Assembly (NCBI GenBank): GCA_964409365.1 | Contig: CAYPCX010000002.1 | Coordinates: forward strand, 160,984-224,983 | Direction: 5' to 3' | DNA: 64,000 nucleotides | Source of the DNA: an uncultured Planctomycetia bacterium | GTDB lineage: Bacteria; Omnitrophota; Gorgyraeia; Tantalellales; Tantalellaceae | Shown: in pieces, positions 17,706-57,510 of the stretch | Position numbering within the stretch: the stretch's first letter is position 1 | Layout of the letters: each line of letters opens with the position of its first letter | Notes under the pieces: model-generated | Database searches by the model: none | Told to the model about the DNA's origin: nothing | Seen by the model: the letters and a program-made list of their open reading frames with translations, nothing else | Translations under genes and position numbers: made by a program

Positions 17706-17774
17706 ATACACACCCGGTGTATACACCCGATGTGTGAGGATGGTTAAGGTGGAAAATAGTTGGATAATAGGGTA

Positions 17775-17802
17775 TTGACGTATTCTGAAAATGTGGTAAA
17801 AT
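17775..17802 (+). promoter_or_regulatory. Putative sigma70-type promoter P1 with extended -10 (TTGACG, 16-nt spacer, TGgTAAAAT)
   Basis: TTGACG at 17775-17780 and TAAAAT at 17797-17802, with TGG immediately 5' of the -10. It lies in an AT-rich intergenic region upstream of the 18039 ORF. Confidence 0.45.
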
Positions 17803-17810
17803 GAGATATC

Positions 17811-18034
17811 GGTTAGGAAAATAGAAAGCCTAGTTAGATAGAGGTTAGGGTGAAACAGGGTATCAGAAGATTAGGTTTTTTATTTTATCTTTGAAAAGTT
17901 AAGGTACAAAATAGCCAGAAATAACACATTGACTAATGTTAAAAATGTGTTAAAATAGGTTATATGTGGTTAGGCTAAAAAAAAGCCAATAAGGTTAGGT
18001 TAGGGTTAGGTTGAGTAAGTAAAGGCAGGTTAGG
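17811..18034 (+). repeat. Dispersed and tandem GGTTAGG (TTAGGG-like) heptamer repeats in the leader of the 13,091-aa gene
   Basis: GGTTAGG at 17811, 17843, 17968, 17993 and 18028. The tandem run ggttaggttagggttaggtt lies at 17993-18012. Related GATTAGG/AGTTAGA copies occur at 17831 and 17871. Confidence 0.6.
17929..17956 (+). promoter_or_regulatory. Putative sigma70-type promoter P2 with extended -10 (TTGACT, 16-nt spacer, TGtTAAAAT), a near-duplicate of P1
   Basis: TTGACT at 17929-17934 and TAAAAT at 17951-17956. The core aaaatgtgttaaaat is almost identical to aaaatgtggtaaaat in P1. It lies ~85 bp upstream of ATG 18039. Confidence 0.45.
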
Positions 18035-33000: not shown

Positions 33001-36000
33001 CGTCGGTGGACTTTGTTCAGGAGAGACTTGAAAAGCTCGAAAAAACGGTGCCCGAAGAGCTTGAGAACGCGGCAGCAGGCGTTGCGCGCGAGATACACGC
33101 CAGGGTCCTGGAGGTCCTGCAGGAGGCCAGAGATGCCGTCAGCAAGAAGGACTTTGACGGGGCCACGGAAAAGATGCAGCATGCCAAGTATCTGACCAAC
33201 GTACTGGTGGTCTTTATGGAATCCGGTTTACGTATTGAAGGACTGGACACCAAAAGCCTGCTCGGAGAGCTGGAAGCCGTTAACAAAGGCAGACGAGCGG
33301 CGTTCGAAGGTAAAGAGGCGAAGGAGGATATCAAACTGCTGAATAAAGAGACCGAGAGGGAAAGAAAGGCCATTGACGAAAGCAAAAAGAGACTGGACGC
33401 CGCCAAGTACGAGTTCAGGGCGAAAGAGATAAGACTCGAGAGCGAAAGACGGAGCATCAGGGAGCGTCTGGAGAAGGCCGGGCTCGGGAAGATCGAGAGT
33501 CCGACGGGAGCGGGGTATGAGATAGGCGGCATGTTCGGCATGGTGCTTACGGCCGGTCCCGGAGATTCGGGCAAGATCGAGGAAATTGAGCACTACAGGG
33601 CCGCCGGCGCCCTCATGGGGGAAGAACTCGACAAGCTGATAAAGGAGAAGAAGGTAAAGTTCTATTATAAAAAGGATGGCAAAAAAGAATATGTAACACC
33701 CGACAAGGCGATCGCGTTCTCTATGGCCACCCACGCGGAATATATGAAAAAGACCTATAAGGTGCACCGCGGGTCGCCGAGCGAGCCGCTCTGCGTCCTG
33801 AAGAGGCAGCTTGGCGGAAAACCCGGCAGGGCAATGATCGTGATGGATAAGAGAACGCTGCTTGAGCTTTACAAGAGGGATTTCAGATTTTTCGATAAAG
33901 AAGGCAAAAGGATATACATGCGGCAGATGTGGCGCCGCATCCAGGGCGATTTCATAGTGACGGAGGACGAGAAAGTCCCGGTCAGGCCGACCAGAGAATA
34001 TTACGGTGAGAAGTTCGAGGACAGGAAGACCAGGAAAAAGATCACGGAACATTCCACTTTCATATGCCCCGAGGAAGGCGGAACCTTCAAGGTCGCGGTA
34101 GCTCAGAAGCTGGATTGGTTCGAGGACTACAATGGCCTGAAACGGGAACATGTGGTGTTTGACGGCCGGAACAGTCCCGCTTTTTCCTTTCCCCTGGATG
34201 ATACCGTCACTTATTACGATGGCGAAGATTATGAGATCGGCACGGGCGACGTGTTCGACCTGGAGATGTACGCCAGTGTTTACAAGAAAGGCGATGTCCA
34301 GTATGACCTGGTTGACGCTTACATGGTCGAGTTAAGGTACAAGATGGAAGGCGGCAAGAAGAAGTTCGACCGCATTCGCGTGTTCCGCAGTGAAGAAGAA
34401 GCGAAGAAAAGAAGGGCCGAGTTCGGTAACGATTTCCGCGACGCGAAAACGAAAGAGACGGCTTACCCGCAGGAGAAAAAGATCCCGGGTCTGAAGAGAA
34501 AGCCGGTCTTCGACCTGAAGGCGAGAGGTGTCTCCGGGATAATGAGGGACGAGTTCATCTGGGGAGCCAGGAAGTTCGAAGATTTCCATTACGGCTTATC
34601 GCTGGGCGGGGAAGGTCCGATAGCATACGGCGAAAAGGGGTGGTTCGGCGAAGAGAAGAAGGTGTTCAAAGTCGCGGAACAGCAGGAATATCACAAAGCG
34701 GGATGGAGTTTTTACAATAAAGAAGATGAAATAATAGATCATAATGATCCGGAACTCTTCGCCGAAGCCGTCAAGGCGCGCGATGCCCACGGCAGGGAAT
34801 GGAAGCTGAAGCCTACCATTTTTATAGCCGCCACGGAAAAAGACGAGAACGGCAACAGAGAGTACAGGGTTGCCGGCACCCTCGAGGAATTCGTACAGAC
34901 GTTCGGCAAGTCGTTCTTCTCAGATTCAAAATTCACGGATAAACACGGGAAGGAAGTCTCTATAGCTCCGTTGCAGGAAGCGTATCTGAACTCTTTCGAA
35001 GGCGCGAAGATGAAGGAACTACAGATGACGCTGAACCTGTTCTACACGGGTCAGGAGATATCCAGGGTCAGGGGTGTCGTTGACGGGCAGGAGAGGGAGT
35101 ACGAGGTCTATCACGGGGAGGAAGCGAGGGAAAAAAGACAAGAACTAGTGAAAAAATATCCGGAGTACTATAAACCTTTAAAGGACGGAAAAGTGCCCAA
35201 GATGCTGTGGGTATGGAAAGGCAAAGGGGAAGACGGGCAGGGGCTGATGGCCGCGATCACGATCTGTGACATCGAAGACGTGCTGGGGTACTTGAAGAAT
35301 AAAAGGCTCAATCTTGTGCCGCTGTATGAATACACGGGATTCGATGAAGAAGGCAAAAAGGTGAAGAAGTATGCCGAGATATTCACCGAGGAACAACTGA
35401 AAGATATCCGGAAAAAGGACAGCTGGAAGAAGTTCGAAAAGATCAACGCCATGATCGAGGTCGCGAGAGCGAGATACAAGGTACGGGAAAAACAGAGGAT
35501 CTTGAATGCGCGAACGGAAGGTCTTACCCTGGAGGACGCGGTCGTTTTGGGCGCCATATACGGCCCGGACGCGCGGAAAGACCTTTTGAGCTACTGGCAG
35601 AGCGTTGCCGGTATAACACTGGAGGGATCCGGTGTGTTCAACATCATAGCGAAACTGAGTTTTACCATACCGCAGTTCGAGAACGCCGCGGGGGTCGACA
35701 TTTTCTTCAGGATAGATCCCGGCAGGGACGCCAGGATAGCCAATGCCAGGGAGATGGCCAACGCGCACAGGCACAGGTTCCAGAGAAAGCAGCAGATCAG
35801 GGCGCTTGATGTCGTTGATCTCTTCATGGAGATGCAGATCAACCGGGCACGTAAGGAATATGACGAAAAATCCATGAAGATATTCAGGGCCCAGCTCAGG
35901 CGTTGGGGACTGACGGACGAGCACCTCAGAAGGATCGAAGAAGGAAAGAACTGGAATGACGCTACTAATTTAGTGAAGAGCATTATAGGAAACAAGGGGA

Positions 36001-39000
36001 CACCCTCTGAACAGAGGGTGCTCAGCGAGATCAACGCGTGGATGGTAGCAAAGGCCAAGATGAAAGAATGTGACAGGAGGCAATCGGCCCTCCAGTCCAG
36101 GTTGAGCTCTCTGGGAGTGAATGTCGGAGAGATCAGCGAGAAAGACATGGACAAGTTATTGGATGGTCTGGAGGGTATGACCCCGGACAAGATCATTGCC
36201 ATGTTCGAGGCAAACGGCATTGTAGATAAAGGGGATAAACTTTCCCTTGACCTGCTGAGGGAGGAAGCGCGCAGGCGGGCGATGAGATGGAAGATCGAAG
36301 AAGCGCGCAAAGGGCCGTGGGTCTATTATCTCGGCGTGAGTTTCGGCATGCCTTATAAGGTCAAGCCGCTCTTCGGCATGGAAAGAAAAGGCGACCTCAA
36401 CAATTTTGAGCTGACCGTTCCCATGGCCAAGATACAGAAGAAACAGCGGGATATCGCCTTTTTGAGGGCGGTGAAGAGCCACAGGGAAGAAAAAGAGCTC
36501 CTGGAAGAGGTTATCCCCCAGATGGAGGAGATGATCGCCGCCATGGACGCTTATCTCGACGATCTTAACCAGGGCGTGAGGGACGTAACGGGAGCTTCAA
36601 GGAAGGGAAGGTTAGAGGAAAACGCCCGTAACGAGTTCATCGGCAAGGCGGAAAAGGTCTGGAGGACATTGAACAGCCTCAAGAAAGAGATGGCGAGGAC
36701 CATAGAGGATTATAAGATACGGCTTGAAGACCTTGAGGAATTCGTCGCTCCTGAGGAGGAAAGAGAACTGGTGCCCGGAAAGTACACCCGTGACATGGCG
36801 AAACGCGACGCTATTGTCAAGGCCGAAAAAAGCGGGGCCCTGGCTTCGGCGGAAGCCGATGAAGACAAGGCGCGCAGACTGTATCAGGAAGCCAGAGAAA
36901 AGCCGGCCCTTCTCATTACAAGGCTGGGGTATACGGGAGGAGGACCGAAGAACATAGAAACCAGTTTCCAGTTAAAGGGCCCGGGATGGAAGCATCTTGA
37001 GAAGTTCCTGGAGCTGGATGTCAGGATAGCGAAGCTTCAGAAGAAATATGTGAAAGAAAGACTGCCGTATGAAGTCCAGAAAGCTTACAGGAGGTGCCTG
37101 AGCGCGAAGGCGCGGGTAAAGAACCTGAGGATAGCCGTGGAAAAATGGGAAACGGCGCTTAAAGCCGCCGAAAAGCGCGGCGAAGTGGGTAAAGCAACAA
37201 AGATAAAATCCGAGATGGGAGAATGCGAGGTATTGCGCCGCACTGCTGAAAATAATCTTAAGAACGCCAGGATGGCCCTCGAGCATCTTACAGGCAAGAA
37301 GTTCGAGGAGCTTGATCCTTCTTCGCTGGATAAGCCGCTGAGGAAGCCCAACCCCAACCTGCGGCTGGAGATACTCAAGCTCAGGAAACAGCAGGCAGTG
37401 GAGATACTGAAGATGAGGGAGGACAACAGCCTGATCACCGCCCTGTTCAAGATGTGCTTTTCCAGTTTCAAGCAGGGAGAGGACAAGGATAATTTCGGCC
37501 TTACTTTTTCGGGAGATGTTTTTGAGTTCATCCAGAACGTGGATACCAGCCCCGAAGGTTTCGACGCTTTCCTGAAGAAGCAGAAGGTCCTGATAAGGAA
37601 GTGGGACAACCAGATCGACATGGAACGGGCCAGGGTCCGGGACTTTAAAGCGCAGAACGAAGCCGAACTTGACGCAGCAAGAGGGAACCTGAAGACCGCC
37701 ATTGCCGAAGTCGAGGCCGACAGGAAATATCTCGACAGCCTGTACAGGCTGTCGCTGGATCTCAGGTATGCCGGGGTGAGCCTGTACAATGAGATACTTT
37801 TCATGGAGGCCAAGCTTCAGAATTCCGTTAACAGCATGGAAGACGCGGTATACAGGTATCTCGATGCCCTTGATGATTGTGGTATGACCATGAACGCGGG
37901 CGTGATCCTCAGGAATTTTGCCCAGCGGTCCGGTCTGGCCCCGTCCGCTTATAACGCGTGGCGCGCGAGGCTGGAAAAACGGCTGTTCTTCTACAACATG
38001 GGTCTTTCCGTGCGTTTCCAGATCTCCAAGTTCTTCGGCGCCGGTTCCCCGATAAAGAACCAGCTGGCCGCCCGCGACAACGCCATTTTCTGGGTTGACA
38101 GGTTATTGCACAAGATGGCCGGGGACGCCCAGTGGAAACAGTTCAGATATTACGACCCGGTAACCGGCCGTGCCAAGCTGAAGGACGATCATATAAACGC
38201 GTATCTGTACAACCAGAAGCTGGTATCACACATCGACATGATGAACGACCTGATGAGGACGGAAGAAGAGATCAGAAGGGCCGAGGCCAGGGCCGGCATA
38301 GAGCTGGGTAAATACAGGCCCAAGCCGACGTTCCCGACAATGCTTATAAACATCAAATTCAATCTTTTCAAGGACCCACTCAAGCAGGAGATAAAGGGTC
38401 ATATCGTAGAGCAGGAAGAAGCCCGCATGGCCGAGGAGGAATTGCGCGACGAGTCCAGGCTCGTGAACGTCGCCACGCAGTATGAAAATTCCAGACAGCA
38501 GGAGAACAGGTTAAAAGGGGAAATAAGGGAACTGGATATGGTGATCAGTTCCGCGGAAGATACCATAAAGCACCGCGATGAGACATCGTCCGAGAGAGGG
38601 ATCTACAGGCTCAAGACACTGAAACTCGAGAAGGAAAAGCAGCTGGCCAGGGCGGAGATGATGACGAAGTTCTTCCAGGGACAGCTCAAGGAAGAGATGA
38701 AAGGTCGCGCCGTGTTCGTCCTGGAAGACGGAACGCCGGTGGACGTCACTAAGATCGATGATGCCCAATTTAAGCGGTTATGGATCAAGTTCAGGAGAGG
38801 GTATTCGGCCCTCAAGGACCTGGATGCCGCTGTAAGGGAGTGGGAGGAAGTAAGCGCCCAGGTGGTCGCGGCCCACCCCGCCCTCAAGAGGATGAAGGCC
38901 CTGGTCAAGGAAGCGGAAGGCAATTACAAGCTGGCGGGTTTCTGGATGAAATTCAGCCCGGATGTAAGGATATGGTTCGGCCTGCCGCTTTCTTCGCCGT

Positions 39001-42000
39001 CGATAGGAGGGATTTCTATTGAGATACCCCTGGTCACCGATCATAAGAGGGAAACCGAGAATGTCATGGCTTATCTCAGCATGTCACAGGCGGAAGAGGG
39101 GGTATTGGACCTGTCGGAGCAGATGCGGGCGGAATTGAGGCAGTACAAGGACGCTATTTTTCACACAAGAGGACTGCTGGAAGACCGGGCCCGTTCACTG
39201 AGGCTCACTGCCGGGAATTTTGTGCTGACTTTCAACAAGTATGAAAGAAATGATACCAATATCGATGATGTACTTGAAAAGGCGCAGGAATGGGCGAACG
39301 CCCGTCAGGAGTTCATGAAGCTCACGACCAGTTACAACCGCCAGGTCAGGGAACTTTCGGCCATTTTACGCAAACTTGACGTGACGGTTCCCCGTGCTCC
39401 CGCCGCGTCCGGGCTTAAAGGTCTGGAAAAAGACAGGGGTTTTATAGCGGCCGTGGGGAATTTCATGGACAACCTGCCCAGGCCGGACGCGGCAAGATCC
39501 GCCGAATTCAGCAAGCTGACCCGGGACAGCCAGGTCCGCGCGTGGGCCCTGGTCTGCAGGGACCTTAAGCACAAGGACAGGGAAGAGGCCATAAGGTACA
39601 TGGAAGAGCTGACCGACAGGTTGCGCGAAGAACAGGAAATGCCGTTTGAAGAGGACCAGGGGATCAGGACCCCCGAGATGACCGATATAATGGGACTGGA
39701 AGAGGATCCATATTTCAATAAAGCGGTAGAAAGGTTTTTGCAAGTACTTGGCCCGCAGGCCACGAAAGTCATTTCACAAAAGAAAGGTATTACCCGGAAG
39801 GAATGGGTGCGCATGCTTGCCCAGCTTTGTAACACCCATCGATGTAAAACAAGGGAAGAGGCTGTACTTCACGTGCACGGAATGGCCATGTGGGCTTCTT
39901 CGCTTCTCAAGCGGTACAGGATGGTAGAGGGGAACAAGGAAAAGCTGCACAGGACGTTCCCGGATTTCCTGGGGACGTTCATCTACCCGCTCACGACGCA
40001 GGAGAAGTCCGGCCTTGTCAACCACCCGGAACGGGGCACGTACCCGTACCTGTTCAATATGTTAGGCCTTGCGGATTGGCTGGCGTTCTCCGATCATGTC
40101 AGGATGGATGTATGGGGTGAGGATGAGCAGACGGCGCGTAACAGGACGAGCGCGCACCTTTATGATCTGTTCGATAAACTTTCCGGAAAGGATTCTTCCG
40201 ATGACCGTTGGATAAGGATATTCAAGGAGGGCTTGAACAAGCTGGGAATGGACCTTACGGATGAAGACGTGAGACAGGCCAGATGCGGCGTGGCGGAAGA
40301 AACCTCCGGATTCATGGGGAAGCCGTACGAGGTAGGCAGTCCCGCGAACGCGAGGGTGCTGGATGTGTCCTTCCGGTTCAAGAACCTGGCGAGGATGAGC
40401 GATGAAGAGTTCGATAAAGCTATGCCCAAGCTTGAAAGGTTGCGCCCGATCGCCGAAAAGCATTTTACCCCGCGCCCGGGCACGCCCGAGTTCTACCGGC
40501 ACGAAGAGGCCGAGAGGCTCAGGGTCCTCATGAAGGACAGGGACACGCTCAAAAAGGTCGAAGATCCCAGCGATAAAGACCGCACCAGGCTTGAGAGGCT
40601 GGAGAAGCTTATCGAGGCCGAGAAACAGACCGTTTATGATTCCATACTGGCCATCAATCTTTTCAAGCTGTATACCGGGATAACGGAAGGATGCCGGAAT
40701 GAATGGGATTTCGAAGATAACGTGAGGTATCTGGAGGAAAAGATCCTTCCCCAGATGGAGGACGATAAAGGCGAGTTCCTGGCTGATTATGACGACCCGC
40801 TGTTCAACGCCCTCTATTTCGTAAATCACCGAGGGGAAGCATATCCCGCGAAGCAGAACGGCAAGCGCGTGACCTGTTATGTGGATGCCGCGAAAGGAGA
40901 GGTCTCGATCAATCGCGGCATGGATATATTCCCGTACGAAGTATGGAAAGGCGTTTTTGACGAAGAGGATTGGACGATAAAAGGAGAAAAGGACGAAGAC
41001 GGCAACTGGACCAGGCCCTGGCGCTTTCAAAAATGGGGTAAAGCGACAAAACTCCGTAATTTCCTTTTCCGACTGCCCGACGGCAGCAGGAAGGTCACGA
41101 TAAGGTCGGGCTACAGGCTCCCCCTGACCGAATACAACAAGGACGGGTCGGAAGCCAAGAAAGGATATATCTTCAAGGAAGAGGACAAGAACCGTCTGGT
41201 GGTCACCAGCGAGACCATAGAGACGGAAGAGTTGAAGCACAGGAAGGTCGAGGAAACGTGGGTGACTTTCTTTGATGATGATGAGAAGATCACCGTCTCC
41301 GAGGGCTGGGTCGCCGGCATAAAAGGCGAGGGTGAAAGCCTGAAGGCGGCGAAAGGGTTTGACGCTCCCATCAAGAGGGAAGAGTTCAGGCGCGTTTATG
41401 GCTGGAACAGGATCGAGGCTGAAATAGAAAGGATGAGGGACGAGAGGATAGCCCAGATCGGCGATCCCAACGTGAGAAGGGCCTTGAAAAGGGCCGTCAA
41501 GAAAATAGAGGACGTGGAGAGAAGGCTGTGGGAAGAGAAGGTTGACAGGACGAAGAGAGCGGAAGGCGAGGTCGAGAAAGACGTCCGGACGCGGACGGGT
41601 GCGAAGATACGGGCTTTAAAGGGCGAGATAGAGGAGCTTGAGGACGATGAAAAGTTCCAGACCAGAAGGAAAGAGGCTCTTATCGAGGCCAGAAGGGAAC
41701 TGCAACAGGTACGGGAAGAGAGAAAGAAGAAAGCGGAAGAGATCAAGAAGAGAAAAGAAAAAGAGAAAGCGCAAACAGACGAGGAAAAACGCAAAGAAGA
41801 AGAGACAATAAAACGCCTGGAAGGGGAGATAACGGTTCTTGAGGAACAGATCGAAAATAAGGAGGCCGCCGCGAGGAAGCTGCAGGAAAAGATAAAAGAG
41901 GCGACTCCCGTGACGACCGCGGCCGGATCCGGGGTTAGCGTCAACCTGCCCTGGAGGCATTACGGCGAGGACGTCGGGAACTATCCGGGTGCGACGCACA

Positions 42001-45000
42001 AGGGCTTCAGTTCAGACGTAGGCAGGAGATTCCTTGATGCCCGGTTCAATGAGATGAAGGAAGCCGGAATAACGCAAACGCGCGTATTCCTCTTCAGCAA
42101 CTTCATGCCAGGCATAGTGGAGAATAATGACGGGACGTTCTCTTTCCAGCCGGAAGTAAATAAAGATATAGACGCTTTGCTGGAAACAGCGGATAAGTAC
42201 GGTATCGGACTTTCCCTGGTGCTTTATAATCATGACTTTAGTGATGGGAGGCCGACGAACGATGACGGCGAGAAGGTCGGAGAAAAACCGGAACTGCTTA
42301 TAGGGAAAAAGGACGAATTCCTAAAGCTCACGAAAGAACTCGTGGGACGCCTGAAGAACCACAAATATGCCCATGTAGTGAAAGCCATAGAGCCGTTCAA
42401 CGAACCGCGGGCGATAAAAGATGCCAAGTATAACTTTGTGAAAAAGGCCATGCACATTGTTACCGGGATCCCCATGGACGCGAAAGACGAGCAAGGCAAT
42501 AACAAACTGGATGAAGCGATGAAGAAACAGTGGCCTGACGCTCATGCCGAAGCATCGGGTTACGCGACCGACGCGCAGAAGGGCAGTATCGCGAAAAGAG
42601 CTGAAGAACTCAGGGAAAAGGGACAGAACGATGCCGCTGGAGAGCTGGAAAAAGCCGACAGGATAGCGGGATTTGACGCGGTACGGGATTTCGCGTCCGA
42701 AGTAGCAGAGGCGGCAGGCGATATACCGGTCGTGATAAGTTGTATGGATAAGGACGACCTGTGGTATAACTGGGCGAAAGAATCTCCCGAGATCCTGGCT
42801 AAGAAGAATGTCGCGGTGGAGATGCACTATTACGTGCCTGTTTACCGCACGGATAAGGACCTGGCCGGGCTGGTGGGAGAATTCCCGAGCGCGGGTGATC
42901 TCCGGGACATGTTGAAGGGTGCAGCGGGAAGAGATGTTCCCGTCGGGATAGGCGAGGTTGGAGTTTATCGCTCAAAGGATAAAGCTGGAACACCTTCCGC
43001 GGCGGAGATGGAAGCTATCGTAACAGGTTTTCAGGCAAAAGGTTACGAGGGAATCAGCTTCTGGAAGGATTATAAAGTGGAAGAAGGGAGGGTTTACCCC
43101 GGTGCTACCAATACTAATATCAGCGAATTGGGAGAGGTCATTATAAAAGCGGCAAAACCCGTAAAGCCCGAAAAAGAGGAACCCGCACCTGCCCAAAAAG
43201 AAGAACTGGCAAAGATGAAAGAAGCCCTGGCAAAACAGCAGGAAGAGATAAAGAAGATAGAAGAGGCAAAAGGAAAACTGGAAGAGCAGAAAAGATCGCT
43301 CGCGAAGGATGAGGTAACGGTAGAAGAGGAAGAAAAGGAATTGCAGGAACTGGATAGAGAGATCAAAGAACTGGAAGAGTGGCAAAAAGGAATAGTGGAC
43401 GATAAGGAAGCGGAAAAATGGAGAAGAGAAGCCATAAAGGAAAGAAAGGACCAGATCGAGGAAGCGAAAAGATACCGGGATGAGCGCATAGCGGCTATAG
43501 CGAAAGGCGATATAGGCAGATTGCGGGAGGAAGTGCGCGCCCTGGAGAGCGAGAAGAGGAAAGAGAAAGACGCCGGAGAGAGGGCGAAAATACAGGAAGA
43601 GATAGAGGACAGGAAGGTCGTCCTGTTGTCGGAAGAGCTTGTGGTAAGCCTTGAAGAGGACCTGAAGACATCGGAAGAGAACGTGAAACTTCTGGAAGAA
43701 GCCGCAAGAGGAATGGAAAAAGACGCGAGGCAGGTCCGCGGCGAAAAAGCAAGAGCTAAAAGACAGAAAGAGATAGCGGATAAAAAAGCCGAGATCGCGA
43801 GAAAAAAGAAGGAAATAATAAGAAAGAAAAAAAGAATAGCGGCGAAGAAGAGTGAAAAGGACAAACTCCTTTACAAGATAAAACAGGGGCGCATAGCGAG
43901 AATAGATGATGATATCCGCAGGAAAAAGGAAGCCGCGATAGCCGGGATAATAAAAGAAGAGGGCTCCTCGGACCAACTGAAGCAGGCCCTGGCCGACACG
44001 ATAGGGGATATAGAAAGGATAAGGAGGATAGCCGAGAAAGCGCACGAGAAAGCGTTCGATAAAAGGCTGGAAGGCAGTATATATGTCCTTGAAGGGCGGC
44101 AGTGGAATATCCTGACGGGAAGGATGGATTATCGCCAGAACCGCCTGGAGGACGAGAAAAAGGTCCTTCTCTGGGACCAGGTGCGGGACTCGTCCAAATC
44201 CCCCGGGTATACGATCGAGACGGTCTACATGAGGGACCCCGAAACGGACTTTATAGTCGAGAAAAGGTACAAGATATTCCATTTCGGCGAGAACAAAGGC
44301 GTGAAACATTTTTATTATAAAGCGGGATTCCAGTTCCAGGGTCTGAAGGACGGCAGAGAGCTCTGGGAAAGGAAGTATTTTGTCAATTATGACACCGGCG
44401 TATGGGAGGAAGTCCTGCCGCCGAAGATAGAAAAAGGCAAGGAAATACCCAGGGAGAGGGGAAGGGATGAGAAGGGCAGGAATTTCACCAGGACGGGAGG
44501 AGCGATACGTTATCATCTTTACAGGGACGAGAACGGCACTACCGTGATATCCAGGAAGCTGATGCTCGGGCAGATCACCGAAAGATATGATTACGCGTTC
44601 GACTATCTGACCGAGCTTGAATACGACGGCACCACATCCTACTCCGCGGTGATCGACCCGGGCAGGACCGTCGAGCTCAAACCCGTGATCCTCAAGCCCA
44701 GCCGCGCGGAAAGGAACGGCGTGAACCTTTTGAAACCCGAATACAGGAAACAAAGGACCATAGAGGACGGCACCACGTTCGACGGCAGGGTTTTTACTTT
44801 TCCGTCTAAATTGATCCAGGGGGGAACTTTATCGTCGCGGGATTTCCCGGAAGGTTTGACGTACAGGCCCGCGCAGGAGGTGCAGTATAAGTTCCATATC
44901 GAATGCAAGTACGATCATAACGAGCAGAGGATCCTGGTCGCGAGGGAAGAGCGTATCATCACGAACATGGATGGGCGCCTGCTGTTCAAGGTCACGCTGG

Positions 45001-48000
45001 ACCGCGAGACGAACCGCGTGAAGATCCTCAGATTTCATAAGACCAAAGAGATCGACGGTAAAAAATACGATAACGTCATGGAAACGTTCGTTTATGACCG
45101 GGAGACGAACGAACTGGTCGAGAAAATGAGCCACCGGATAGTTTTCGATGAATACCTCAGGGAGAACGACAGGTGGGATCTCGTAAAGTCCTGGGCGATC
45201 GTTGAGGAGAAGCAGGATAATTTCGCGGACCTGGAGAACGTCGACGTGAGAAGGACTTACGAAGTGGCGAAAAAGATAGAGTATCACGAGGATGGCACTA
45301 CGACCGAGTTCATGACCAAAAAGAGCAAAGACGACGAATGGCCGAAGATAGACATGGAAGTGACGACCGAGAAGAATAAATACGGCATTCCCGTGGAAGT
45401 GGTCTCTTCCGGCACCCGCCAGGATTCAAAGAGTGAGGAAGAAAGGCCCTTCGTTCCGGTGATATTCGAACCCCATGCCATTAAGAGGGCGACGGGCCCC
45501 TTAATGAGGTACCGGAGTTCTGACGGGAAAAAACTGGATAAGCCGGTAAAGATCGGCCTTCTTTCTTACGATGAGAAAGAAGGCACTCTTAACGCCGTGT
45601 TTGCCAGGCCGGACGGTACTCTTGACATTGTCAAGGTGCCGGAGGACGCGAGGATAATAGAACTGGTCGAGCGGGAAGCCACGAAGACGCACGTGTCTTT
45701 CGGTATCTACGATGTTTACGGGAAGCCCTTGTACCAGGACAGGATGACACACCAGAGGGGCAACGGGGCTATCCACCATATATTGCATTACACTCCCGTT
45801 TCGGGCCGCAGCAAGGAAGAGGATATTAGACGGGGCGAGGTAGATGATTCAAGCCGGAGCGATGAATATTATGGTTATATTCCCAAGGAAGGCGACGGGA
45901 AAGAGGTGCGGGTGCTTTTGAAAGAATCGACTGTGATAAGGAACACCGATACCGAGAAAAACGACCTGTACCTGGTAGAAAATGAAAGGTCCCAATTCAA
46001 GAGATACAGGAAGGAATACGAATATAACCTTTACAGGGCGATAAGCGGGCTTCCGACCAGCGATAAACCGATAGCTAGCAAGGCCTGGAGATTGACACCG
46101 GAAGGGGAAGATTACCCGAAGCCGTACGAGATCGTCGTATACAGGTTCGACCTGGAGAACGAACAGCGGCTTATCATTTCCATGTATGACCGAAAATATC
46201 CGGATGGCACTGATGTGCCTGCCAATGCGCCGCTGGAGGAAGGACAGATAGTGACCGGCCTTCTTACCACTTCGCTGAAGTCGGGTATCGAATATGAGTC
46301 GGAAACATGGCGGGCGCCTCTCGTGAAAGCAGAAGGCAAACTTCACCTGGATTTTGCCAAGGGCAGCCTTATCGCCAGGAGGTACCGCATGCCCGAGACC
46401 GACCGGTTCATCACTATCCACCTGGAAAGGGACGAAAAGACAAAAGAGTATTCGGTCAAGGGCGTGTTCGAAGGAGAAGGAGTTATCGAGCTTTTCGGCA
46501 TCTTCCCGGACAAGAAGGTAAGAGAGTTCTGGGGCCTTGACCCCAAAAGGGTCGTTATAGATCCGGAAACGGGCGAGTTCACAGGGCTCGGCGACACACC
46601 GGACAAATGCGTAAAGATCGATAACGATAATTTTAATGAAGGGATCGCGAGGAACCGGGTAAAAAGATACGTGTATGACCCCCGGAACCCGGACTATGTA
46701 TACTCCATACCCTGGCGAAGCGATCCTGACTACGTGAAAGGGCGTTTTTATCTCAGCCAGAAAGAAGGCATCAGGAAAAGCCGGCTTGTGGCGAGTTTCA
46801 GACGGAGCCCGGGTGTCAGTTTCGAGGATATGATCAGGAACGCACAGACCACCAAGCCGTGGGACAGGAAGACATCGGAGGTGACCCGCATAAGGGCCGA
46901 GGATGCCGAGTTGGACATGATCTACACCTATACAGGAACGAATTACCGCGCGCATGCCGCCAAGGACAGGGGAACTGAACCCGCCGTATTCACGGTGAAA
47001 AAGGACGGGGATACGTGGGAGATATACGAGTATCCCGTCGAGAATGAGAAAACGGGCGAGATCGATAGCCTGCGCGGGACACAATACCGTGTCAGCACCA
47101 CGGAGCCTAAAAAGAAAGACGGGACCAAAGAAGAAGGATGGGTGAAAGTAACACTTGATATCGGGAAGGTCGTCAGGAACATAGCTTCCCTTTCACCGAA
47201 GATGAAGATGGCCGACGGCACTCTTTTACAGGACACTAAAAATCTTCCTGACTCGAAGACCTTCTGGCTGAAGGAAGTGTATCACTGGAAAGGCGTAAAG
47301 AAAAAGGACGGGACGATCGAAAGGGTCATGTTCAATCCCCAGGGTGTCCAGGTAAAGAGGACATATGATCCCGGCGAGAACAAGACGCTGAGGGAGAACA
47401 TCGATGAGCTCATCAAGGATGTCGGGAAAGAACACCGCGAGAGGGAAAAAGCCAGGAAGAAAGCTGAAGAAGCCCGGCTCCATCTGACGGAGAGGGTCCA
47501 TGCCGCGGATCGCAAAGAAGCCGAGGAGATCGCCGCCGAGGATCCCCTTTTCAGCGACACATGGCGCAACGAGATGGTGGACGCGATCTATAACAAGGTA
47601 AGGAACAAGGAAGCCAAGGGCGAGAAGCTGAGTTCAGCTCAGCTGAAGGCCCTTTTAAAAAGAAGCCCAAAGGTGCTGGCCACGTTCGAAAAAGTGCTGG
47701 AAAGGTTCGGCCTGTCCGCCGATTATTCAGATCCGGAACTGCGTAACCTCGTGCTGGACTGGACGTTGATGACCGACAAGGAAAAGGGCGTGTCGGAATG
47801 GACGCTGGTGACCGGCAAGGAAAAAGAGGTGGATTTCGGTGATAGCGCGCAGATGGAAGAGTTCCTCGGGTATGTCGTCGCCGTTTCAAGGATCCCGGAG
47901 TTCAGGGAACTGGTAGAGAATTCACCGCGGATAACGAAACTGAACAAACGCCCGAAACGCATAAAGATAATAAAGAAGGCGATCCTTTACGCAAAGGATA

Positions 48001-51000
48001 AGAACAGGGGATTGACCGACAGGGATATCGGCGCCAAGCTGGAGTACGAACTGGTTTCCGACAAGAAGGAAGAAGGTGCGGCAGACAGGTATTACGAAAG
48101 AGATAGTCGGAATATGCTCAGGGAGACTGTTGAAAAGTCGGCTTGGGTGTTCGCTCTTGCAGTTGCGGCGTTTGCGACCCTTGTGGTCATTGTGAGATTG
48201 CGAAGGGCAAGAAGGGGAAAAGTATTGGCAACAAGAAGGTTTGTTCCGAGAGGGACAGGAACCGGGACTGGAGATGACGAGGCGGAAGGTGATGATGAGC
48301 CCGGCCCTGCCCGTCACGACAGGCCGCACGACGGCACGCACGCCTTCAAGCCGATAACGGCTCTTGCCGCGCCGCTTCTTTTGACACTCGCGATGGGATT
48401 GGTCTATCTGGCCGGGGTCTATCCGCAAGGGCTCTTATGGAATACGATCCTGATCGTTCTTGCCGGACATGTGCTTTTAAGGTCGATATATCTGCTGATG
48501 GGGGGCATATATGCGACGGATTCTCTGACGGTCCCCCTGGCCCTTTCAGATGGCACGAAGACGGCGGCATATAGCCAACTGCCTTCCAAAGCGCAGCGTT
48601 ATATCGACAGACACGAACTTATCCATGTCTTTACAGGCGGGTTATTGGCCGGGATACTGAACGATCTTATAGCTCTGCCCGCGCTTTATTTTCCCGTGTA
48701 TGACAGGATCATAAACTGGCTCCTTTACCGCGCGCCTCAGGAAGGAATGGGCGGCGCGGTCCGGCAGAGAGAACTGCCACAGGATAAGCCGGTCAAGATC
48801 GATGCGACCGCGAATCTTCTGCAGCCCGGCGGCGGTGACAGGCGCATGGCGCTGGCCGATGACCTGCTTGATACGGGTAGAGATCCGGATAGGACCGGCC
48901 TGGCCGAAAGGATCTGGGACAGGGCCCACGGCAAGCGGAGTGACAGGAAAGACGACGGGATGAAGGGGCACATCCATGACGAGTTGATGAAACTGGAGAA
49001 AGTAAGGGTTTTCAGGAACGGAGGCAAACCCGCCGTCAGGGAGATATGGTCGAATATCGGTATAGTGAGCCTGGTCCTGGCCGGATGGATCTTTAGGGGG
49101 GCTTACGTGTATGCCAGGTGGGATATTGGTCTTGCTCTGCTTGGTCTTGTGTTCCTGGTCTTCGGCGTGTTCCTGAACAGATACGTCATTTTGGAGTTCT
49201 ATAATAAGGTCATCAACAAGCGTCAGCGTGCCACTGATCAACAAGATACTATAAGAGGTCTGAGAGGAAGGCTTGCGGAAGCGAGAGAGAATCTCGCGGA
49301 GCTCAGGGAGGAATACGGCCGGCATTTGACCAACGAAGGCTGGAACACGCTCATGACAATGACGGTCCAGCCCGCTTTTGATCATCCGGACAGCTATATA
49401 GAGGCAAAGGCGCAGAACATAAATATCCTACAGTATATTGAATACTGCGATCACTGGCTCGAGTTCATCCAGGACAACCCCGAGGGCTACAAACTGTTCG
49501 CCAGGTTCCAGGGCCCCGACTACGGTTTCAGCCCGAAATACGTGCCGACCCTGTACGTGAAGGGCGAGCATTTTACCCGGCTCGTTTCCCCCGACGGGGC
49601 GTGTCTGCTCATGCCGGGTAAGGTGTCCGATTACCAGGATGATCCGGTATACAGCGGGTGGGGATACAGGGAAGTGTCGGATGACGCCCTTTATAACGGG
49701 CCCATGACCTATAATAACGCCGTCCATTTCGCGCCTATAAACAACCTGCCGAAATACATGGACACGCTGGCTTATAAGGTAAAGACCATCGGCCGGGAAC
49801 TGAAGATAGACGAGTATCGTAACAGGACCGAAGGCACGCCCAGGCGTGAGCTGTATGAAGTGATAAACGACATAAGCGATTACGATCACAGGGTCACGGA
49901 GGACAAGACCGAAAGGACATCCGGCGGTATCGGGACGGATCCCGCCCGTTCGAGTTATATGCACGGTATCATCAGGCACGGATTATTCCTTGTTTTGACG
50001 TTGGCAGTGATGACCCTGTTGATCTTTGCTTACTATAGTGTTTCTCCGTGGCTCATCGCGGCGAAGCCGGTCGTTCCCACGGGTCTAGGTTGGGTGGCAG
50101 CCGTGACCGTTACCATGGGGCCGCTGTATTTTGTCAACATCGCGAATTTGCAGAAGCTTTTCTTCCTTATCGTACGGTTCAAGGGAAGGGACGAGACCGC
50201 CGAGGACGAGGACCATATCATGAGGTTCGTCCCCGAGAACATTATAGAGCAGGCCATATATGATGCGGTGGCAGACATGCGCCAGGATGGCCAGGGCGAT
50301 AGAGTGCCCGGTTTTCTGGCGGATTGGCTCCACGGACACCGGGGAGATATGGACGTCAAAGGTCTTTTACAGGCGATACGCAAAGACTACCAGGAAAATT
50401 ACAGGATCCTGGCGATAGAAGGCATGTCACCCAGCGACCACCCGTATTACCGCCTGCTTCTCCATCACGGGCTGTTGCAAGCCCTTTTCCTCTCGACGAT
50501 GGAAAGGGAAGAACTGGTAGACAAGTTAAGGAATATCGCCAGGGAGGACGACAGGGTGCGGGAGTGGATAGGCCTGGCGATCGATGATGACGACGCGTGG
50601 GAAGCGTTCAAGGAAGAGAATAGAGACTGTTCCTGTACGGATATCATCGAGCGGTTAGGTAAGGAAGGAGTACTTCACCTGATAGGCAACCACCCCGGCG
50701 TGTTCCCCGACATCTATCTTTTGCTTACGATATTCGGAAAATTTTCCCCCAAGGACCGCCAGACCACCAAGAACAAGTTCAGGAGGCTGGTGACGACCCT
50801 TCTTGACTTTTATCCCGGCACGGCGAAAGTAGAAGACGTGAAAGACCTTCCCGCGAGGGTCGTCCCCTGTATAGACGATAACGACAGGAATCTTTTCCAG
50901 GCAGTTGAGGAATTGTTCGGTGTGGAATGGGACGAAGGTTCCGGCAAGAACATAGACGGTGTGAACTTCAGGGACTACCTGGAGAAGCTCATGCTCGACG

Positions 51001-57481: not shown

Positions 57482-57510
57482 TTGACATTATTATATAATA
57501 TGTTAATATA
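57482..57510 (+). promoter_or_regulatory. Candidate promoter region for the third giant gene (TTGACA at 57482-57487 in a very AT-rich stretch; -10 ambiguous)
   Basis: ggTTGACAttattatataatatgttaatatataaac. Several TATAAT-like hexamers occur at non-ideal spacing, and GTTAGG-like motifs lie immediately upstream (57453, 57473). Confidence 0.25.

What the first reader, a model, noticed from the sequence alone, without database searches (positions are those of the whole stretch)
41560..44040. GH5-like glycoside hydrolase catalytic domain embedded in the giant protein, bracketed by coiled coils
The motifs EPFNEP (acid/base) and GIGEVG (nucleophile) lie ~185 residues apart. The surrounding segments are strand/helix-alternating (RVFLFSNF, GLSLVLYNH, VVISCMDKD, VAVEMHYY). 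These are the hallmarks of clan GH-A family 5 enzymes. A polysaccharide or cell-wall-degrading activity displayed on a giant tethered scaffold fits a role in attacking or remodelling another cell's envelope or a polymeric substrate. The ~280-aa coiled coil after it could act as a rigid stalk.
Basis: partly seen in the sequence, partly recalled or inferred. Interest (0 to 1): 0.6.

Follow-up and report, generated by a model that had tools for sequence, protein, structure and literature searches.

The report
GH5 mannanase-like domain in giant protein
The flagged stretch is a real, apparently intact sugar-chain-cutting enzyme domain (glycoside hydrolase family 5, closest to beta-mannanases) held between long charged helices inside a 13,091-residue membrane protein of an Omnitrophota bacterium, a kind of giant protein already described and already auto-annotated as "cellulase family" in relatives.

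Summary
Observation confirmed; interpretation largely supported. All six motifs lie where stated, in a 13,091-aa ORF (window 18039-57314, +). Residues 7960-8374 (nt 41916-43160) are a GH5 / clan GH-A (beta/alpha)8 domain. Pfam PF00150 passes only marginally (26.3 bits, cutoff 23.5). There are 158 homologues (best E=3e-32). A family profile built without the query scores it at 151 bits. The family profile hits solved GH5_10 beta-mannanases (2C0H, E=9e-41). The AlphaFold2 model (pLDDT 86, pTM 0.88) puts N8121-E8122 just after strand 4 and E8306 in strand 7. Its best PDB matches are the same mannanases. Arg, Asn-Glu, His-x-Tyr, Glu and Trp are near-invariant in 129 homologues and all are present here. 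The 184-residue Glu-Glu spacing is not a hallmark: the family median is 90, and the excess is a helical insertion of about 88 aa after the acid/base. Both flanks are charged helices with heptad periodicity in parts only. The host protein has SecA-like and TolC-like modules, and its relatives are Candidatus Omnitrophota giant proteins. NCBI already names some of them "cellulase family glycosylhydrolase" or "TolC family protein". This is a new member of a known kind. Substrate, topology and any role in predation remain inferred.

The parts
18039..57314 (+). Host gene g2: a complete 13,091-aa ORF encoding a giant multi-pass membrane protein
   Evidence: ORF list. SecA-like and TolC-like Pfam hits. 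Kyte-Doolittle TM clusters at aa 3973-4328 and 10034-12683. Relatives are Candidatus Omnitrophota.
41562..41903 (+). Upstream charged helical arm, aa 7842-7955 (three predicted helices)
   Evidence: AF2 DSSP helices 2-26, 31-69 and 75-115 of model m64bf77bc50dc. Over the aa 7870-7958 and 7900-7958 stretches measured: 58% charged, 17% hydrophobic. Heptad periodicity z=4.4 for aa 7900-7958.
41916..43160 (+). GH5 (clan GH-A) catalytic domain, mannanase-like, aa 7960-8374
   Evidence: PF00150 at E=6e-6. 158 homologues. Family profile hits 2C0H, 3VUP, 4OOU and 5Y6T at E=9e-41 to 3e-36. AF2 pLDDT 86.2, pTM 0.88, (beta/alpha)8. Foldseek top hits are GH5 mannanases.
41940..41978 (+). N-terminal family signature VNLPWRHYGEDVG (strand 1 and the loop after it)
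   Evidence: N10, W13 and Y16 are conserved in 118-124 of 129 homologues. The motif aligns with GANQAWVNYARDFG of 2C0H.
42081..42083 (+). Conserved Arg8015 (strand 2, RVFLF)
   Evidence: Arg in 125 of 129 homologues. Strand 54-60 in the model.
42399..42407 (+). N8121-E8122-P8123: predicted catalytic acid/base Glu (codon 42402-42404) at the C-terminal end of strand 4
   Evidence: N in 121 and E in 124 of 129 homologues. Strand 4 is domain residues 155-161, followed by N162-E163. The column aligns with MNEPE of 2C0H.
42411..42674 (+). Lineage-specific helical insertion of about 88 aa (aa 8125-8212) between the acid/base and helix 4
   Evidence: Gap in all 28 other rows of alignment A1. Glu-Glu spacing is 184 against a median of 90. 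Predicted helical with block pLDDT 83-94. Only the fragment P0022 shares part of it (51% identity).
42825..42833 (+). H8263-Y8264-Y8265: the GH5 His-x-Tyr motif on strand 6
   Evidence: H in 125 and Y in 120 of 129 homologues. Strand 299-308 in the model.
42954..42956 (+). E8306: predicted catalytic nucleophile, in strand 7 (GIGEVG)
   Evidence: E in 123 of 129 homologues. Strand 7 is domain residues 343-351 and contains E347. The column aligns with VIGEF of 2C0H.
43062..43064 (+). W8342: conserved Trp of strand 8 (SFWKD)
   Evidence: W in 127 of 129 homologues.
43188..44114 (+). Downstream charged helical region, aa 8384-8692 (six predicted helices, two of them about 70 residues long)
   Evidence: AF2 helices 544-580, 589-609, 616-648, 652-725, 729-799 and 804-852. 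53% charged. Heptad z=4.8 for aa 8385-8480 but about 0 over the whole region.
37011..39368 (+). TolC-like module in the same TM-free segment (OEP repeats at aa 6325-6419 and 6936-7110)
   Evidence: PF02321 at E=1e-8/2e-8 and 1.1e-5.
27603..29120 (+). SecA-like ATPase module (aa 3189-3694)
   Evidence: SecA_DEAD 6e-15, SecA_PP_bind 1.5e-7, P-loop_SecA 6e-11.
48138..48194 (+). First TM helix after the GH5-bearing segment (aa 10034-10052); its charge pattern suggests the preceding segment is extracytoplasmic
   Evidence: KD hydropathy 2.48. It is followed by RLRRARRGKVLATRR (8 K/R in 15), against a mixed-charge N-terminal flank. This is a positive-inside inference only.

Best explanation
Residues 7960-8374 of the 13,091-aa protein form a genuine and probably active glycoside hydrolase family 5 domain. 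It belongs to the beta-mannanase-like branch whose nearest solved relatives are the GH5_10 endo-beta-1,4-mannanases.

**Shown.** It has a (beta/alpha)8 barrel fold and the full GH5 catalytic constellation: R8015, N8121-E8122, H8263/Y8265, E8306 and W8342.

**Inferred from the established chemistry of clan GH-A.** It cleaves a beta-1,4-linked glycan, most likely with a mannan-type backbone, by the retaining double-displacement mechanism. E8306 would be the nucleophile and E8122 the acid/base.

**Inferred from context.** The domain sits in a TM-free segment of about 5,700 aa (aa ~4330-10033) between two clusters of membrane helices. That segment also carries a TolC-like module and is most likely extracytoplasmic. 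Charged helical arms of about 115 aa and about 310 aa hold the domain away from neighbouring modules. An extra helical subdomain of about 88 aa, inserted right after the acid/base, probably shapes the aglycone side of the cleft.

**Organism and role.** The organism is an Omnitrophota bacterium. The module recurs at different positions in related Omnitrophota giant proteins. The likely role is cutting an external or foreign surface polysaccharide while the enzyme stays tethered to the cell. This agrees with the published prey-attachment and cell-wall-degradation hypothesis for these proteins.
For: - **Motifs and frame.**
- **Pfam.** GH5 passes above its gathering cutoff on the isolated domain.
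- **Homologues.** 158 homologues, best E=3e-32. The leave-one-out profile gives 151.5 bits.
- **Solved relatives.** The family profile hits 2C0H at 9e-41, 3VUP at 6e-39, 4OOU at 2e-37 and 5Y6T at 3e-36. Other GH5 mannanases follow, and endoglucanases appear only at about 1e-4. 2C0H and 4OOU are GH5_10 (PMC5576741).
- **Model.** pLDDT 86.2, pTM 0.88. NEP follows strand 4 and E347 lies in strand 7. The Foldseek top hits are the same mannanases at E about 1e-10 to 1e-11.
- **Catalytic residues.** Conserved in 120-127 of 129 homologues, and all are present in the query.
- **Secretion.** Stand-alone homologues carry N-terminal signal or lipoprotein-like leaders.
- **Topology.** Positive-inside pattern at TM 10034-10052. 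TolC-like repeats in the same segment.
- **Recurrence.** The module recurs in Omnitrophota giants that share other g2 regions: P0021, P0037, P0078 and L023.
- **Flanks.** Helical.
- **Literature.** 10.1101/2023.11.21.568195 and 10.64898/2026.06.07.730766.
Against: - **No activity data.** No bacterial member of this branch has been characterised: PMC5576741 says none as of 2017, and I found none.
- **Weak direct matches.** The query alone finds no PDB chain by phmmer. It falls below Pfam detection when scanned in 900-aa or 5000-aa pieces.
- **Divergent C-terminal half.** It scores 17.5 bits against the leave-one-out profile.
- **Modest structural scores.** Foldseek TM-scores are 0.53-0.61 with rmsd about 8 A, partly because of the insertion.
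- **Insertion effect unknown.** The 88-aa insertion next to the acid/base could occlude or re-purpose the cleft.
- **Topology unresolved.** My hydropathy count gives 8 to 10 helices in the upstream TM cluster, so its parity is ambiguous.
- **Specificity can vary.** One GH5_10 enzyme is a xylanase (PMC5576741).
- **No neighbourhood clue.** Stand-alone homologues have no conserved gene neighbourhood that would point to a substrate.
Confidence: 0.78

Rival explanations
1. The GH5 module is a tethered foraging enzyme. It digests environmental beta-mannan, glucomannan or other hemicellulose-type polymers for uptake, like a cell-bound cellulosome component, and has nothing to do with predation.
For: The nearest characterised relatives are plant- or algal-mannan endo-mannanases. 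The same family occurs as small secreted enzymes in many non-predatory phyla such as Acidobacteriota, Chloroflexi and Planctomycetota.
Against: Omnitrophota giants have been linked to prey attachment: the V. archaeovorus giant protein rose 3-fold when the cell was attached to prey, as cited in 10.1101/2023.11.21.568195. No carbohydrate-binding module or sugar-import gene is visible in this window, which holds only three giant ORFs.
Confidence: 0.2
2. The module acts on the cell's own envelope or exopolysaccharide, trimming or remodelling it so that the giant protein and its TolC-like part can be assembled. This would be analogous to the matrix hydrolases encoded with exopolysaccharide systems.
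For: The domain shares one TM-free segment with a TolC-like outer-membrane module. Retaining GH5 mannanases can transglycosylate (abstract of PMC4237917).
Against: Stand-alone homologues are not consistently next to glycosyltransferase or polysaccharide-export genes: only 3 of 130 neighbouring ORFs hit GT2. Nothing in the window encodes polysaccharide synthesis.
Confidence: 0.12
3. The domain is a catalytically dead or re-purposed GH5 fold that only binds glycan, serving as a lectin-like adhesin on the scaffold.
For: The 88-aa insertion lies directly after the acid/base and is unique to this lineage. The C-terminal half is divergent. One giant-protein relative, P0012, has NEA instead of NEP.
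Against: Every catalytic and substrate-positioning residue of GH5 is retained in the query. Pseudo-enzymes normally lose at least one of the two Glu.
Confidence: 0.06
4. The GH5-bearing segment is cytoplasmic, and the enzyme processes an intracellular glycan.
For: The number of helices in the upstream TM cluster (aa 3973-4377) is ambiguous: 8 to 10 by hydropathy. West-Roberts et al. note that overlooked TM helices can flip predicted localisation.
Against: Homologues are secreted proteins with leader peptides. TolC-type modules are periplasmic or outer-membrane. The positive-inside pattern at TM 10034-10052 puts the preceding segment outside.
Confidence: 0.08
5. The motifs are a chance resemblance in a long low-complexity ORF, and there is no folded enzyme domain.
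For: The Pfam score is marginal and disappears in longer query pieces. The word-indexed homologue search found nothing.
Against: Homologues at E=3e-32. Leave-one-out profile at 151 bits. Confident barrel model. GH5 structural hits.
Confidence: 0.01

Closest known systems
GH5 subfamily 10 endo-beta-1,4-mannanases (Mytilus edulis Man5A 2C0H, Cryptopygus antarcticus CaMan 4OOU/4OOZ, Aplysia kurodai 3VUP, Eisenia fetida 5Y6T)
   Same: These are the best sequence-profile hits (E=9e-41 to 3e-36) and the best Foldseek hits. They share the N-terminal N-x-x-W-x-x-Y-x-x-D-x-G signature, NEP acid/base, H-x-Y, G-E nucleophile and strand-8 Trp. By counting along the alignment, the family's NEP and GE columns align with N162-E163 and E294 of the 2C0H chain. 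From memory of Larsson et al. 2006, these correspond to the catalytic Glu177 and Glu308.
   Different: Identity is only 12-17% in the structural alignments. The query carries an 88-aa helical insertion after the acid/base and is embedded in a 13,091-aa membrane protein rather than being a soluble enzyme of about 350 aa. CAZy subfamily membership could not be tested because no dbCAN tool is available here. No bacterial member has been characterised (PMC5576741).
Omnitrophota giant proteins auto-annotated 'cellulase family glycosylhydrolase' or 'TolC family protein' (e.g. MFH0764595.1, 7201 aa; MEW6170605.1; MBU1852100.1, 7866 aa)
   Same: They carry the same GH5-like module (33-36% identity in the N-terminal half). 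They also share other g2 regions: the N-terminal module at 43% identity in P0021, aa 10466-11631 at 26-39% in P0037, and the C-terminus in P0078. L023 shows the same pattern.
   Different: The GH5 module sits at quite different positions and in a different domain order (aa ~2600, ~1650 and ~6700 against 7960). These relatives lack the 88-aa insertion. Of the relatives examined, none except the small ENA-only fragment P0022 (51% over 75 residues) is more than about 40% identical in the GH5 domain. Their flanks are not unusually charged.
Giant Omnitrophota membrane proteins with divergent SecA domains (West-Roberts et al. 2023; 2026 complete-genome survey)
   Same: A very long single ORF, many TM helices, SecA_DEAD plus preprotein-binding domain with no Pfam hit to a scaffold/wing domain, glycosyl hydrolase content, and Omnitrophota origin.
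   Different: At 13,091 aa it is smaller than the >=30,000-aa proteins the 2023 paper focuses on. That paper reports GH76-like and SLT-like folds. Text searches of both papers found no mention of GH5, mannanase, cellulase or TolC.
Stand-alone bacterial homologues (300-450 aa secreted proteins in Acidobacteriota, Planctomycetota, Melainabacteria, Chloroflexi and others)
   Same: The same family and the same catalytic residues.
   Different: They have a signal peptide plus a single domain. They lack the helical arms and the insertion, their Glu-Glu spacing is about 90, and their motif variants differ (VTVGS / IGE-x-x-P / NGY-x-G-x-LFWS against VISC / IGEVG / KGYEGISFWKD).

Membership tests
Clan GH-A / glycoside hydrolase family 5 | (beta/alpha)8 TIM-barrel fold | tested here: met
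   The AF2 model (pLDDT 86.2, pTM 0.88) shows eight strand/helix alternations. 482 PDB matches at E<=1e-3; the 50 listed are clan GH-A enzymes, led by GH5 mannanases.
Clan GH-A / glycoside hydrolase family 5 | Acid/base Glu preceded by Asn (N-E-P) at the C-terminal end of strand 4 | tested here: met
   N8121-E8122-P8123 follows strand 155-161 of the model. The column is N in 121 and E in 124 of 129 homologues.
Clan GH-A / glycoside hydrolase family 5 | Nucleophile Glu at the C-terminal end of strand 7 | tested here: met
   E8306 (domain E347) lies in strand 343-351. E in 123 of 129 homologues.
Clan GH-A / glycoside hydrolase family 5 | Other GH5-conserved residues: Arg (strand 2), His (strand 3), His-x-Tyr (strand 6), Trp (strand 8) | tested here: met
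   R8015, H8263/Y8265 and W8342 are present and near-invariant in the family. The strand-3 His (H8065) is present in the query but is Phe or Tyr in most family members.
Clan GH-A / glycoside hydrolase family 5 | Score above the curated threshold of the family model (Pfam PF00150) | tested here: met
   26.3-26.5 bits against a cutoff of 23.5 on the isolated domain. This is marginal: there is no hit when the domain is scanned inside 900-aa or 5000-aa pieces. 8 of the 29 rows of alignment A1 (the query and 28 relatives) hit PF00150.
Clan GH-A / glycoside hydrolase family 5 | The two catalytic carboxylates about 5.5 A apart on the C-terminal face of the barrel | not testable with these tools
   Model coordinates are not exposed. 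Only DSSP and pLDDT were returned.
Clan GH-A / glycoside hydrolase family 5 | Glycosidic-bond hydrolysis with retention of configuration | not testable with these tools
   This needs an enzyme assay and product NMR.
GH5_10 / endo-beta-1,4-mannanase | Closest relationship to characterised GH5_10 mannanases rather than to other GH5 subfamilies | tested here: met
   The family profile hits 2C0H, 3VUP, 4OOU and 5Y6T at 9e-41 to 3e-36. The next-best mannanases score 5e-16 and weaker, and endoglucanases about 1e-4. Foldseek gives the same ranking. This holds at family level only: the query alone gives no PDB sequence hit.
GH5_10 / endo-beta-1,4-mannanase | Formal CAZy subfamily assignment (dbCAN-sub or phylogeny with CAZy members) | not testable with these tools
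   No CAZy or dbCAN library is available here. NCBIfam gave no hit for the query or for three homologues.
GH5_10 / endo-beta-1,4-mannanase | Activity on beta-1,4-mannan, glucomannan or galactomannan | not testable with these tools
   Bacterial GH5_10-like genes were uncharacterised as of 2017, and one beetle GH5_10 enzyme is a xylanase (PMC5576741).
Omnitrophota giant SecA-domain membrane proteins | Single ORF of more than about 7,000 aa with many transmembrane helices | tested here: met
   13,091 aa. About 27 hydropathy peaks of at least 1.7 fall in three clusters. This is a crude predictor.
Omnitrophota giant SecA-domain membrane proteins | Divergent SecA DEAD and preprotein-binding domains without a scaffold/wing domain | tested here: met
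   SecA_DEAD 6e-15, SecA_PP_bind 1.5e-7 and P-loop_SecA 6e-11 at aa 3189-3694. No other SecA family was reported.
Omnitrophota giant SecA-domain membrane proteins | Omnitrophota origin | tested here: met
   All named relatives of the g2 N-terminal module (50 hits in all, 23-57% identical, about half of them at 45% or more) are Candidatus Omnitrophota, as are the named giant relatives that carry the GH5 module. This is indirect: the window itself was not found in the genome, metagenome or viral collections, and it holds no marker gene.
Coiled coil (flanking arms) | Long alpha-helices with heptad (3.5-residue) hydrophobic periodicity | tested here: inconclusive
   The helices are predicted throughout. 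Periodicity is significant for aa 7900-7958 (z=4.4) and aa 8385-8480 (z=4.8) but absent over aa 8480-8680. Part of the upstream arm is 71% charged and 10% hydrophobic, which is more like a single stable helix.
Coiled coil (flanking arms) | Helix-helix pairing, either oligomeric or as an intramolecular hairpin | not testable with these tools
   No coordinates and no multimer prediction are available. The high pLDDT (82-91) of the two ~70-residue helices joined by a 3-residue turn hints at a hairpin.

The most novel reading that the evidence does not exclude
The GH5 module, its unique 88-aa helical lid-like insertion and the two charged helical arms could form a specialised 'enzyme on a stalk'. 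In this reading the giant protein exports it through its own TolC-like channel, about 850 residues upstream in the same TM-free segment. A single polypeptide would then span both membranes and present a mannanase-type blade on the cell surface to breach the glycan coat of prey cells. That would be a self-contained secretion-plus-effector machine with no separate secretion system.
Probability: 0.1. Interest if true: 0.7.

Novelty: new member of a known kind. Interest (0 to 1): 0.3.

Why it matters
It gives a concrete, testable catalytic module inside one of the otherwise largely unannotated giant proteins of Omnitrophota: domain boundaries, two catalytic glutamates to mutate, and a predicted substrate class (beta-1,4-mannan-type glycans).

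It also shows that standard whole-protein Pfam scans miss the module, which is found only when the domain is cut out. Glycoside-hydrolase content of giant proteins may therefore be under-counted.

The bacterial family uncovered here is the bacterial counterpart, or a close sister, of the animal GH5_10 mannanases, and none of its members appears to have been characterised.

The general idea is already published: giant Omnitrophota membrane proteins carry glycosyl hydrolases and may be used against prey envelopes. NCBI already labels relatives 'cellulase family glycosylhydrolase'. The finding refines the picture rather than changing it.

Tried and rejected
- **Word-indexed homologue search.** With the domain alone it found nothing. 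With the family alignment it returned only 2 proteins. The exhaustive HMMER search was needed.
- **Single-sequence PDB search.** phmmer gave only spurious HDAC6 matches at E about 2.
- **Locating the source.** I scanned genome contigs, metagenome contigs and viral contigs with the domain. The window itself is in none of them, so the organism had to be inferred from relatives.
- **First locus search with alignment A1.** I repeated it with the smaller alignment A2.
- **NCBIfam.** No family matched the query or three homologues.
- **Tiled Pfam scan of g2 aa 4301-10200.** It found only the TolC-like repeats. It did not recover GH5 in the 900-aa tile.
- **Neighbour-gene census.** Around 33 stand-alone homologues (130 ORFs) there is no conserved context that would point to a substrate.
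- **Second copy or internal repeats.** There is no second GH5 copy in the three giant ORFs and no internal repeats by BLAST.
- **Other Pfam checks.** No convincing hit on the shared N-terminal module or on aa 8688-10033: the only match was DUF4142 at E=0.42, 11.3 bits against a cutoff of 27.
- **Other clan GH-A families.** I rejected GH2, GH42, GH164 and GH113 as the best family. They appear only at much weaker scores than the GH5 mannanases.

Full report
**1. What is in the window**

The 64-kb window is almost entirely three co-directional giant ORFs on the + strand.
- g1 runs off the 5' end and stops at 17530. It is at least 5,821 aa and has TPR repeats in its C-terminal half.
- g2 is complete at 18039-57314 and encodes 13,091 aa.
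- g3 starts near 57690 and runs off the 3' end, giving at least 2,100 aa.

The flagged interval 41560-44040 lies inside g2 and corresponds to aa 7841-8668.

**2. Checking the observation**

| Motif | Position in g2 |
|---|---|
| EPFNEP | aa 8118 |
| GIGEVG | aa 8303 |
| RVFLFSNF | aa 8015 |
| GLSLVLYNH | aa 8057 |
| VVISCMDKD | aa 8231 |
| VAVEMHYY | aa 8258 |

The two putative catalytic Glu are E8122 and E8306, 184 residues apart.

**3. Is it a real domain?**

On the excised domain (nt 41916-43160), Pfam reports only Cellulase/GH5 (PF00150). The E-value is 6e-6 and the score 26.3 bits, against a gathering cutoff of 23.5. That is marginal. The hit vanishes when the same residues are scanned inside a 900-aa tile or a 5000-aa piece, probably because of the highly charged flanks.

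The word-indexed protein search found nothing. The exhaustive HMMER scan of 1.84 billion representatives found 158 homologues at E<=1e-3 and 25 at E<=1e-10. The best is a 2,272-aa protein at 3e-32.

I aligned the query with 28 of these relatives (alignment A1, 29 rows in all). A profile built without the query still scores g2 at 151.5 bits. It matches aa 7966-8131 and aa 8215-8346, the two halves on either side of an insertion. Chance is excluded.

**4. Which family**

The family profile hits solved structures of GH5 endo-beta-1,4-mannanases.

| PDB entry | Source | E-value |
|---|---|---|
| 2C0H | Mytilus edulis | 9e-41 |
| 3VUP | Aplysia kurodai | 6e-39 |
| 4OOU | Cryptopygus antarcticus | 2e-37 |
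| 5Y6T | Eisenia fetida | 3e-36 |

Other GH5 mannanases follow at 5e-16 to 1e-7. Endoglucanases and GH2 enzymes appear only at 1e-4 and weaker.

PMC5576741 identifies 2C0H and 4OOU as GH5 subfamily 10. It states that the characterised GH5_10 enzymes are endo-mannanases, with one xylanase exception, and that bacterial GH5_10 genes were uncharacterised.

In the HMMER alignment the family's NEP and G-E columns align with MNEPE and VIGEF of 2C0H. By counting along that alignment these are chain residues E163 and E294. With a 14-residue offset they match the catalytic Glu177 and Glu308 that I recall from the 2C0H paper. That recollection is a lead from memory, not a test.

**5. Structure**

AlphaFold2 with alignment A1 gives a confident model: mean pLDDT 86.2 and pTM 0.88. 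It has the strand/helix alternation of a (beta/alpha)8 barrel.
- Strand 4 is domain residues 155-161, immediately followed by N162-E163-P164.
- Strand 7 is residues 343-351 and contains E347.

Foldseek against the PDB returns the same GH5 mannanases first (E 4.5e-11 to 8e-9, TM 0.53-0.61). GH164 beta-mannosidases and further GH5 mannanases follow. The modest TM and rmsd values partly reflect the insertion. I could not measure the carboxylate distance because coordinates are not exposed.

**6. Catalytic residues across the family**

In 129 homologous domains the GH5 constellation is nearly invariant, and the query keeps every one of these residues.

| Residue (domain numbering) | Conserved in, of 129 |
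|---|---|
| Arg56 | 125 |
| Asn162 | 121 |
| Glu163 | 124 |
| His304 | 125 |
| Tyr306 | 120 |
| Glu347 | 123 |
| Trp383 | 127 |

That argues for an active enzyme rather than a pseudo-enzyme.

**7. What is unusual about this copy**

The Glu-Glu spacing is 184. In 121 homologues the median is 90 and the range is 78-136.

The excess is an insertion of about 88 residues (aa 8125-8212) directly after the acid/base. It is absent from all 28 other rows of A1 and is predicted as a bundle of short helices with block pLDDT 83-94. Only one 143-aa database fragment, P0022, shares part of it, at 51% identity over 75 residues. In GH5 enzymes the loop after strand 4 borders the aglycone subsites, so the insertion may act as a lid or specificity element. 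That is inference.

**8. The flanks**

Both flanks are 50-60% charged, about 20% hydrophobic and nearly free of Pro and Gly. Heptad periodicity of hydrophobic residues is significant for aa 7900-7958 (z=4.4) and aa 8385-8480 (z=4.8). It is not coherent across the whole 300-residue downstream region. Part of the upstream arm looks more like a charged single helix.

An 860-residue AlphaFold2 model (aa 7841-8700) predicts three helices upstream (aa 7842-7955). Downstream it predicts six helices (aa 8384-8692), including two of about 70 residues joined by a three-residue turn with pLDDT 82-91. 'Bracketed by long charged helices' is therefore shown. 'Coiled coil' is plausible for parts. A 'rigid stalk' is not demonstrated, and a helical hairpin is equally possible.

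**9. Context within g2**

- A SecA-like module (SecA_DEAD, SecA_PP_bind, P-loop_SecA) lies at aa 3189-3694.
- Hydropathy peaks cluster at aa 3973-4328 and from aa 10034 onward.
- The GH5 domain lies in the TM-free stretch of about 5,700 residues between these clusters.
- That stretch also holds two TolC-type OEP repeats, at aa 6325-6419 and aa 6936-7110.
- The first helix after the stretch (aa 10034-10052) is followed by RLRRARRGKVLATRR. By the positive-inside rule this puts the preceding segment outside the cytoplasm.
- Stand-alone homologues have signal or lipoprotein-like leaders.

Together these favour an extracytoplasmic location. The helix count in the upstream cluster is ambiguous, so the topology remains inferred.

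**10. Organism and relatives**

The window itself is absent from the genome, metagenome and viral collections.

The g2 N-terminal module (aa 95-620) is paralogous to the g3 N-terminus at 37% identity. It has 50 relatives, the closest about half of them 45-57% identical. Every one that carries a name is Candidatus Omnitrophota.

A degenerate-pattern scan of species-representative genomes found the GH5-like family in many phyla. In Acidobacteriota, Melainabacteria and others it is a stand-alone ORF of 300-450 aa. Inside ORFs of 1,000 to more than 3,900 aa it occurs mainly in Omnitrophota and Planctomycetia-labelled MAGs.

Several of these large proteins are true relatives of g2 beyond the GH5 module.
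- P0021 (7,201 aa) shares the N-terminal module at 43% identity.
- P0037 and L023 share g2 aa ~10440-11630.
- P0078 (7,866 aa) shares the C-terminus.

The GH5 module sits at a different position in each. NCBI already names these proteins 'cellulase family glycosylhydrolase' (MFH0764595.1, MEW6170605.1) or 'TolC family protein' (MBU1852100.1), all from Candidatus Omnitrophota.

**11. Comparison with the literature**

West-Roberts et al. (10.1101/2023.11.21.568195) describe Omnitrophota giant proteins with many TM helices and divergent SecA DEAD and preprotein-binding domains that lack the scaffold/wing. [quoted passage not shown] They also note that cutting sequences into shorter pieces was needed to detect domains.

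A 2026 survey (10.64898/2026.06.07.730766) catalogues 916 Omnitrophota proteins of at least 10,000 aa. It includes a SecA_DEAD architecture cluster and recurrent glycoside-hydrolase flanks.

Text searches of both papers found no mention of GH5, mannanase, cellulase or TolC. The general class is nevertheless the same.

**12. Mechanism and verdict**

The best-supported reading is a tethered, retaining endo-beta-1,4-glycanase of the mannanase-like GH5 branch. E8306 would be the nucleophile and E8122 the acid/base. It is displayed on helical arms in an extracytoplasmic loop of an Omnitrophota giant membrane protein.

The steps rest on different kinds of evidence.
- The fold and the catalytic residues are shown.
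- The chemistry follows from established knowledge of clan GH-A.
- The substrate class rests on the nearest characterised relatives.
- Location and biological target (prey glycans, environmental mannan or the cell's own envelope) are inferred and unresolved. A census of genes next to stand-alone homologues gave no clue.

The finding is correct but ordinary for this kind of protein: a new, divergent member of a known kind. Its one lineage-specific peculiarity is the insertion.

Noticed in passing
window 37011-37295 and 38844-39368 (g2 aa 6325-6419 and 6936-7110): Two TolC-type outer-membrane efflux protein (OEP, PF02321) repeats are embedded in the giant protein, about 850 aa upstream of the GH5 domain and in the same TM-free segment. 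A 7,866-aa Omnitrophota relative that carries the GH5 module is named 'TolC family protein' by NCBI. Text searches of the two giant-protein papers found no mention of TolC.
   Followed up: partly
window 18252-20105 (g2 aa 72-689) and 57712-59490 (g3 aa 15-607): g2 and g3 begin with a paralogous module: a TM anchor (FLKI..I...F.HQQI.W) followed by about 520 aa, 37% identical between the two. It has no Pfam hit even at E<=1. It has 50 database relatives, all named ones Candidatus Omnitrophota and many marked 'partial', so it looks like a conserved 'head' of this class of giant proteins. From memory, motifs such as HIQDAHAS and AALITGGYHTKGL recall TraB/GumN/Tiki-type folds. I did not test that.
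   Followed up: partly
window 27603-29120 (g2 aa 3189-3694): A divergent SecA-like ATPase module (SecA_DEAD, SecA_PP_bind, P-loop_SecA) lies immediately upstream of an 8-10-helix TM cluster (aa 3973-4377). This matches the published signature of Omnitrophota giant proteins.
   Followed up: partly
window 17775-17802, 17929-17956 and 57482-57509: Extended -10 sigma-70-like promoter matches (TTGAC-N16-TG-n-TAAAAT/TAATAT; 10 of 12) sit upstream of g2 (two copies) and g3. Each giant gene may therefore be its own transcription unit. The intergenic DNA is AT-rich with GGTTAGG-type repeats.
   Followed up: partly
window ~17500-17730: The last ~20 nt of g1 and the ~85 nt that follow it (ATCCAAACCGCCATCGCCC...GGAGGTGGCGAAGGGG + GC-rich hairpin + GTGTACACACCCGA repeats) appear twice in tandem, as an imperfect direct duplication of about 100 nt. 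I saw this by eye in the sequence print-out only.
   Followed up: no
L023 (CAYHAE010000043.1, MAG labelled uncultured Planctomycetia), locus 2-11044: An ORF open at both ends (at least 3,681 aa) shares three separate regions with g2: the N-terminal module at 52%, aa 10436-11631 at 26-37%, and the GH5 module. Their order differs from g2. Either such giant proteins also occur in Planctomycetia or the bin's taxonomy label is wrong.
   Followed up: partly
whole window, + strand: There is a strong and uniform purine excess on the coding strand: GC skew is +0.06 to +0.30 and AT skew is positive (up to +0.39) in every 2-kb bin but one (52001-54000, -0.01). This is consistent with the very high Glu/Lys/Arg content of the three giant ORFs.
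   Followed up: no
window 44115-48137 (g2 aa ~8693-10033): The ~1,340 aa between the downstream helices and the next TM cluster look rich in Tyr, Phe, Trp and Gly in the translation and have no credible Pfam hit (DUF4142 only, E=0.42, 11.3 bits against a cutoff of 27). The fold is unknown. It could be a binding or beta-helical region like those described by West-Roberts et al.
   Followed up: partly
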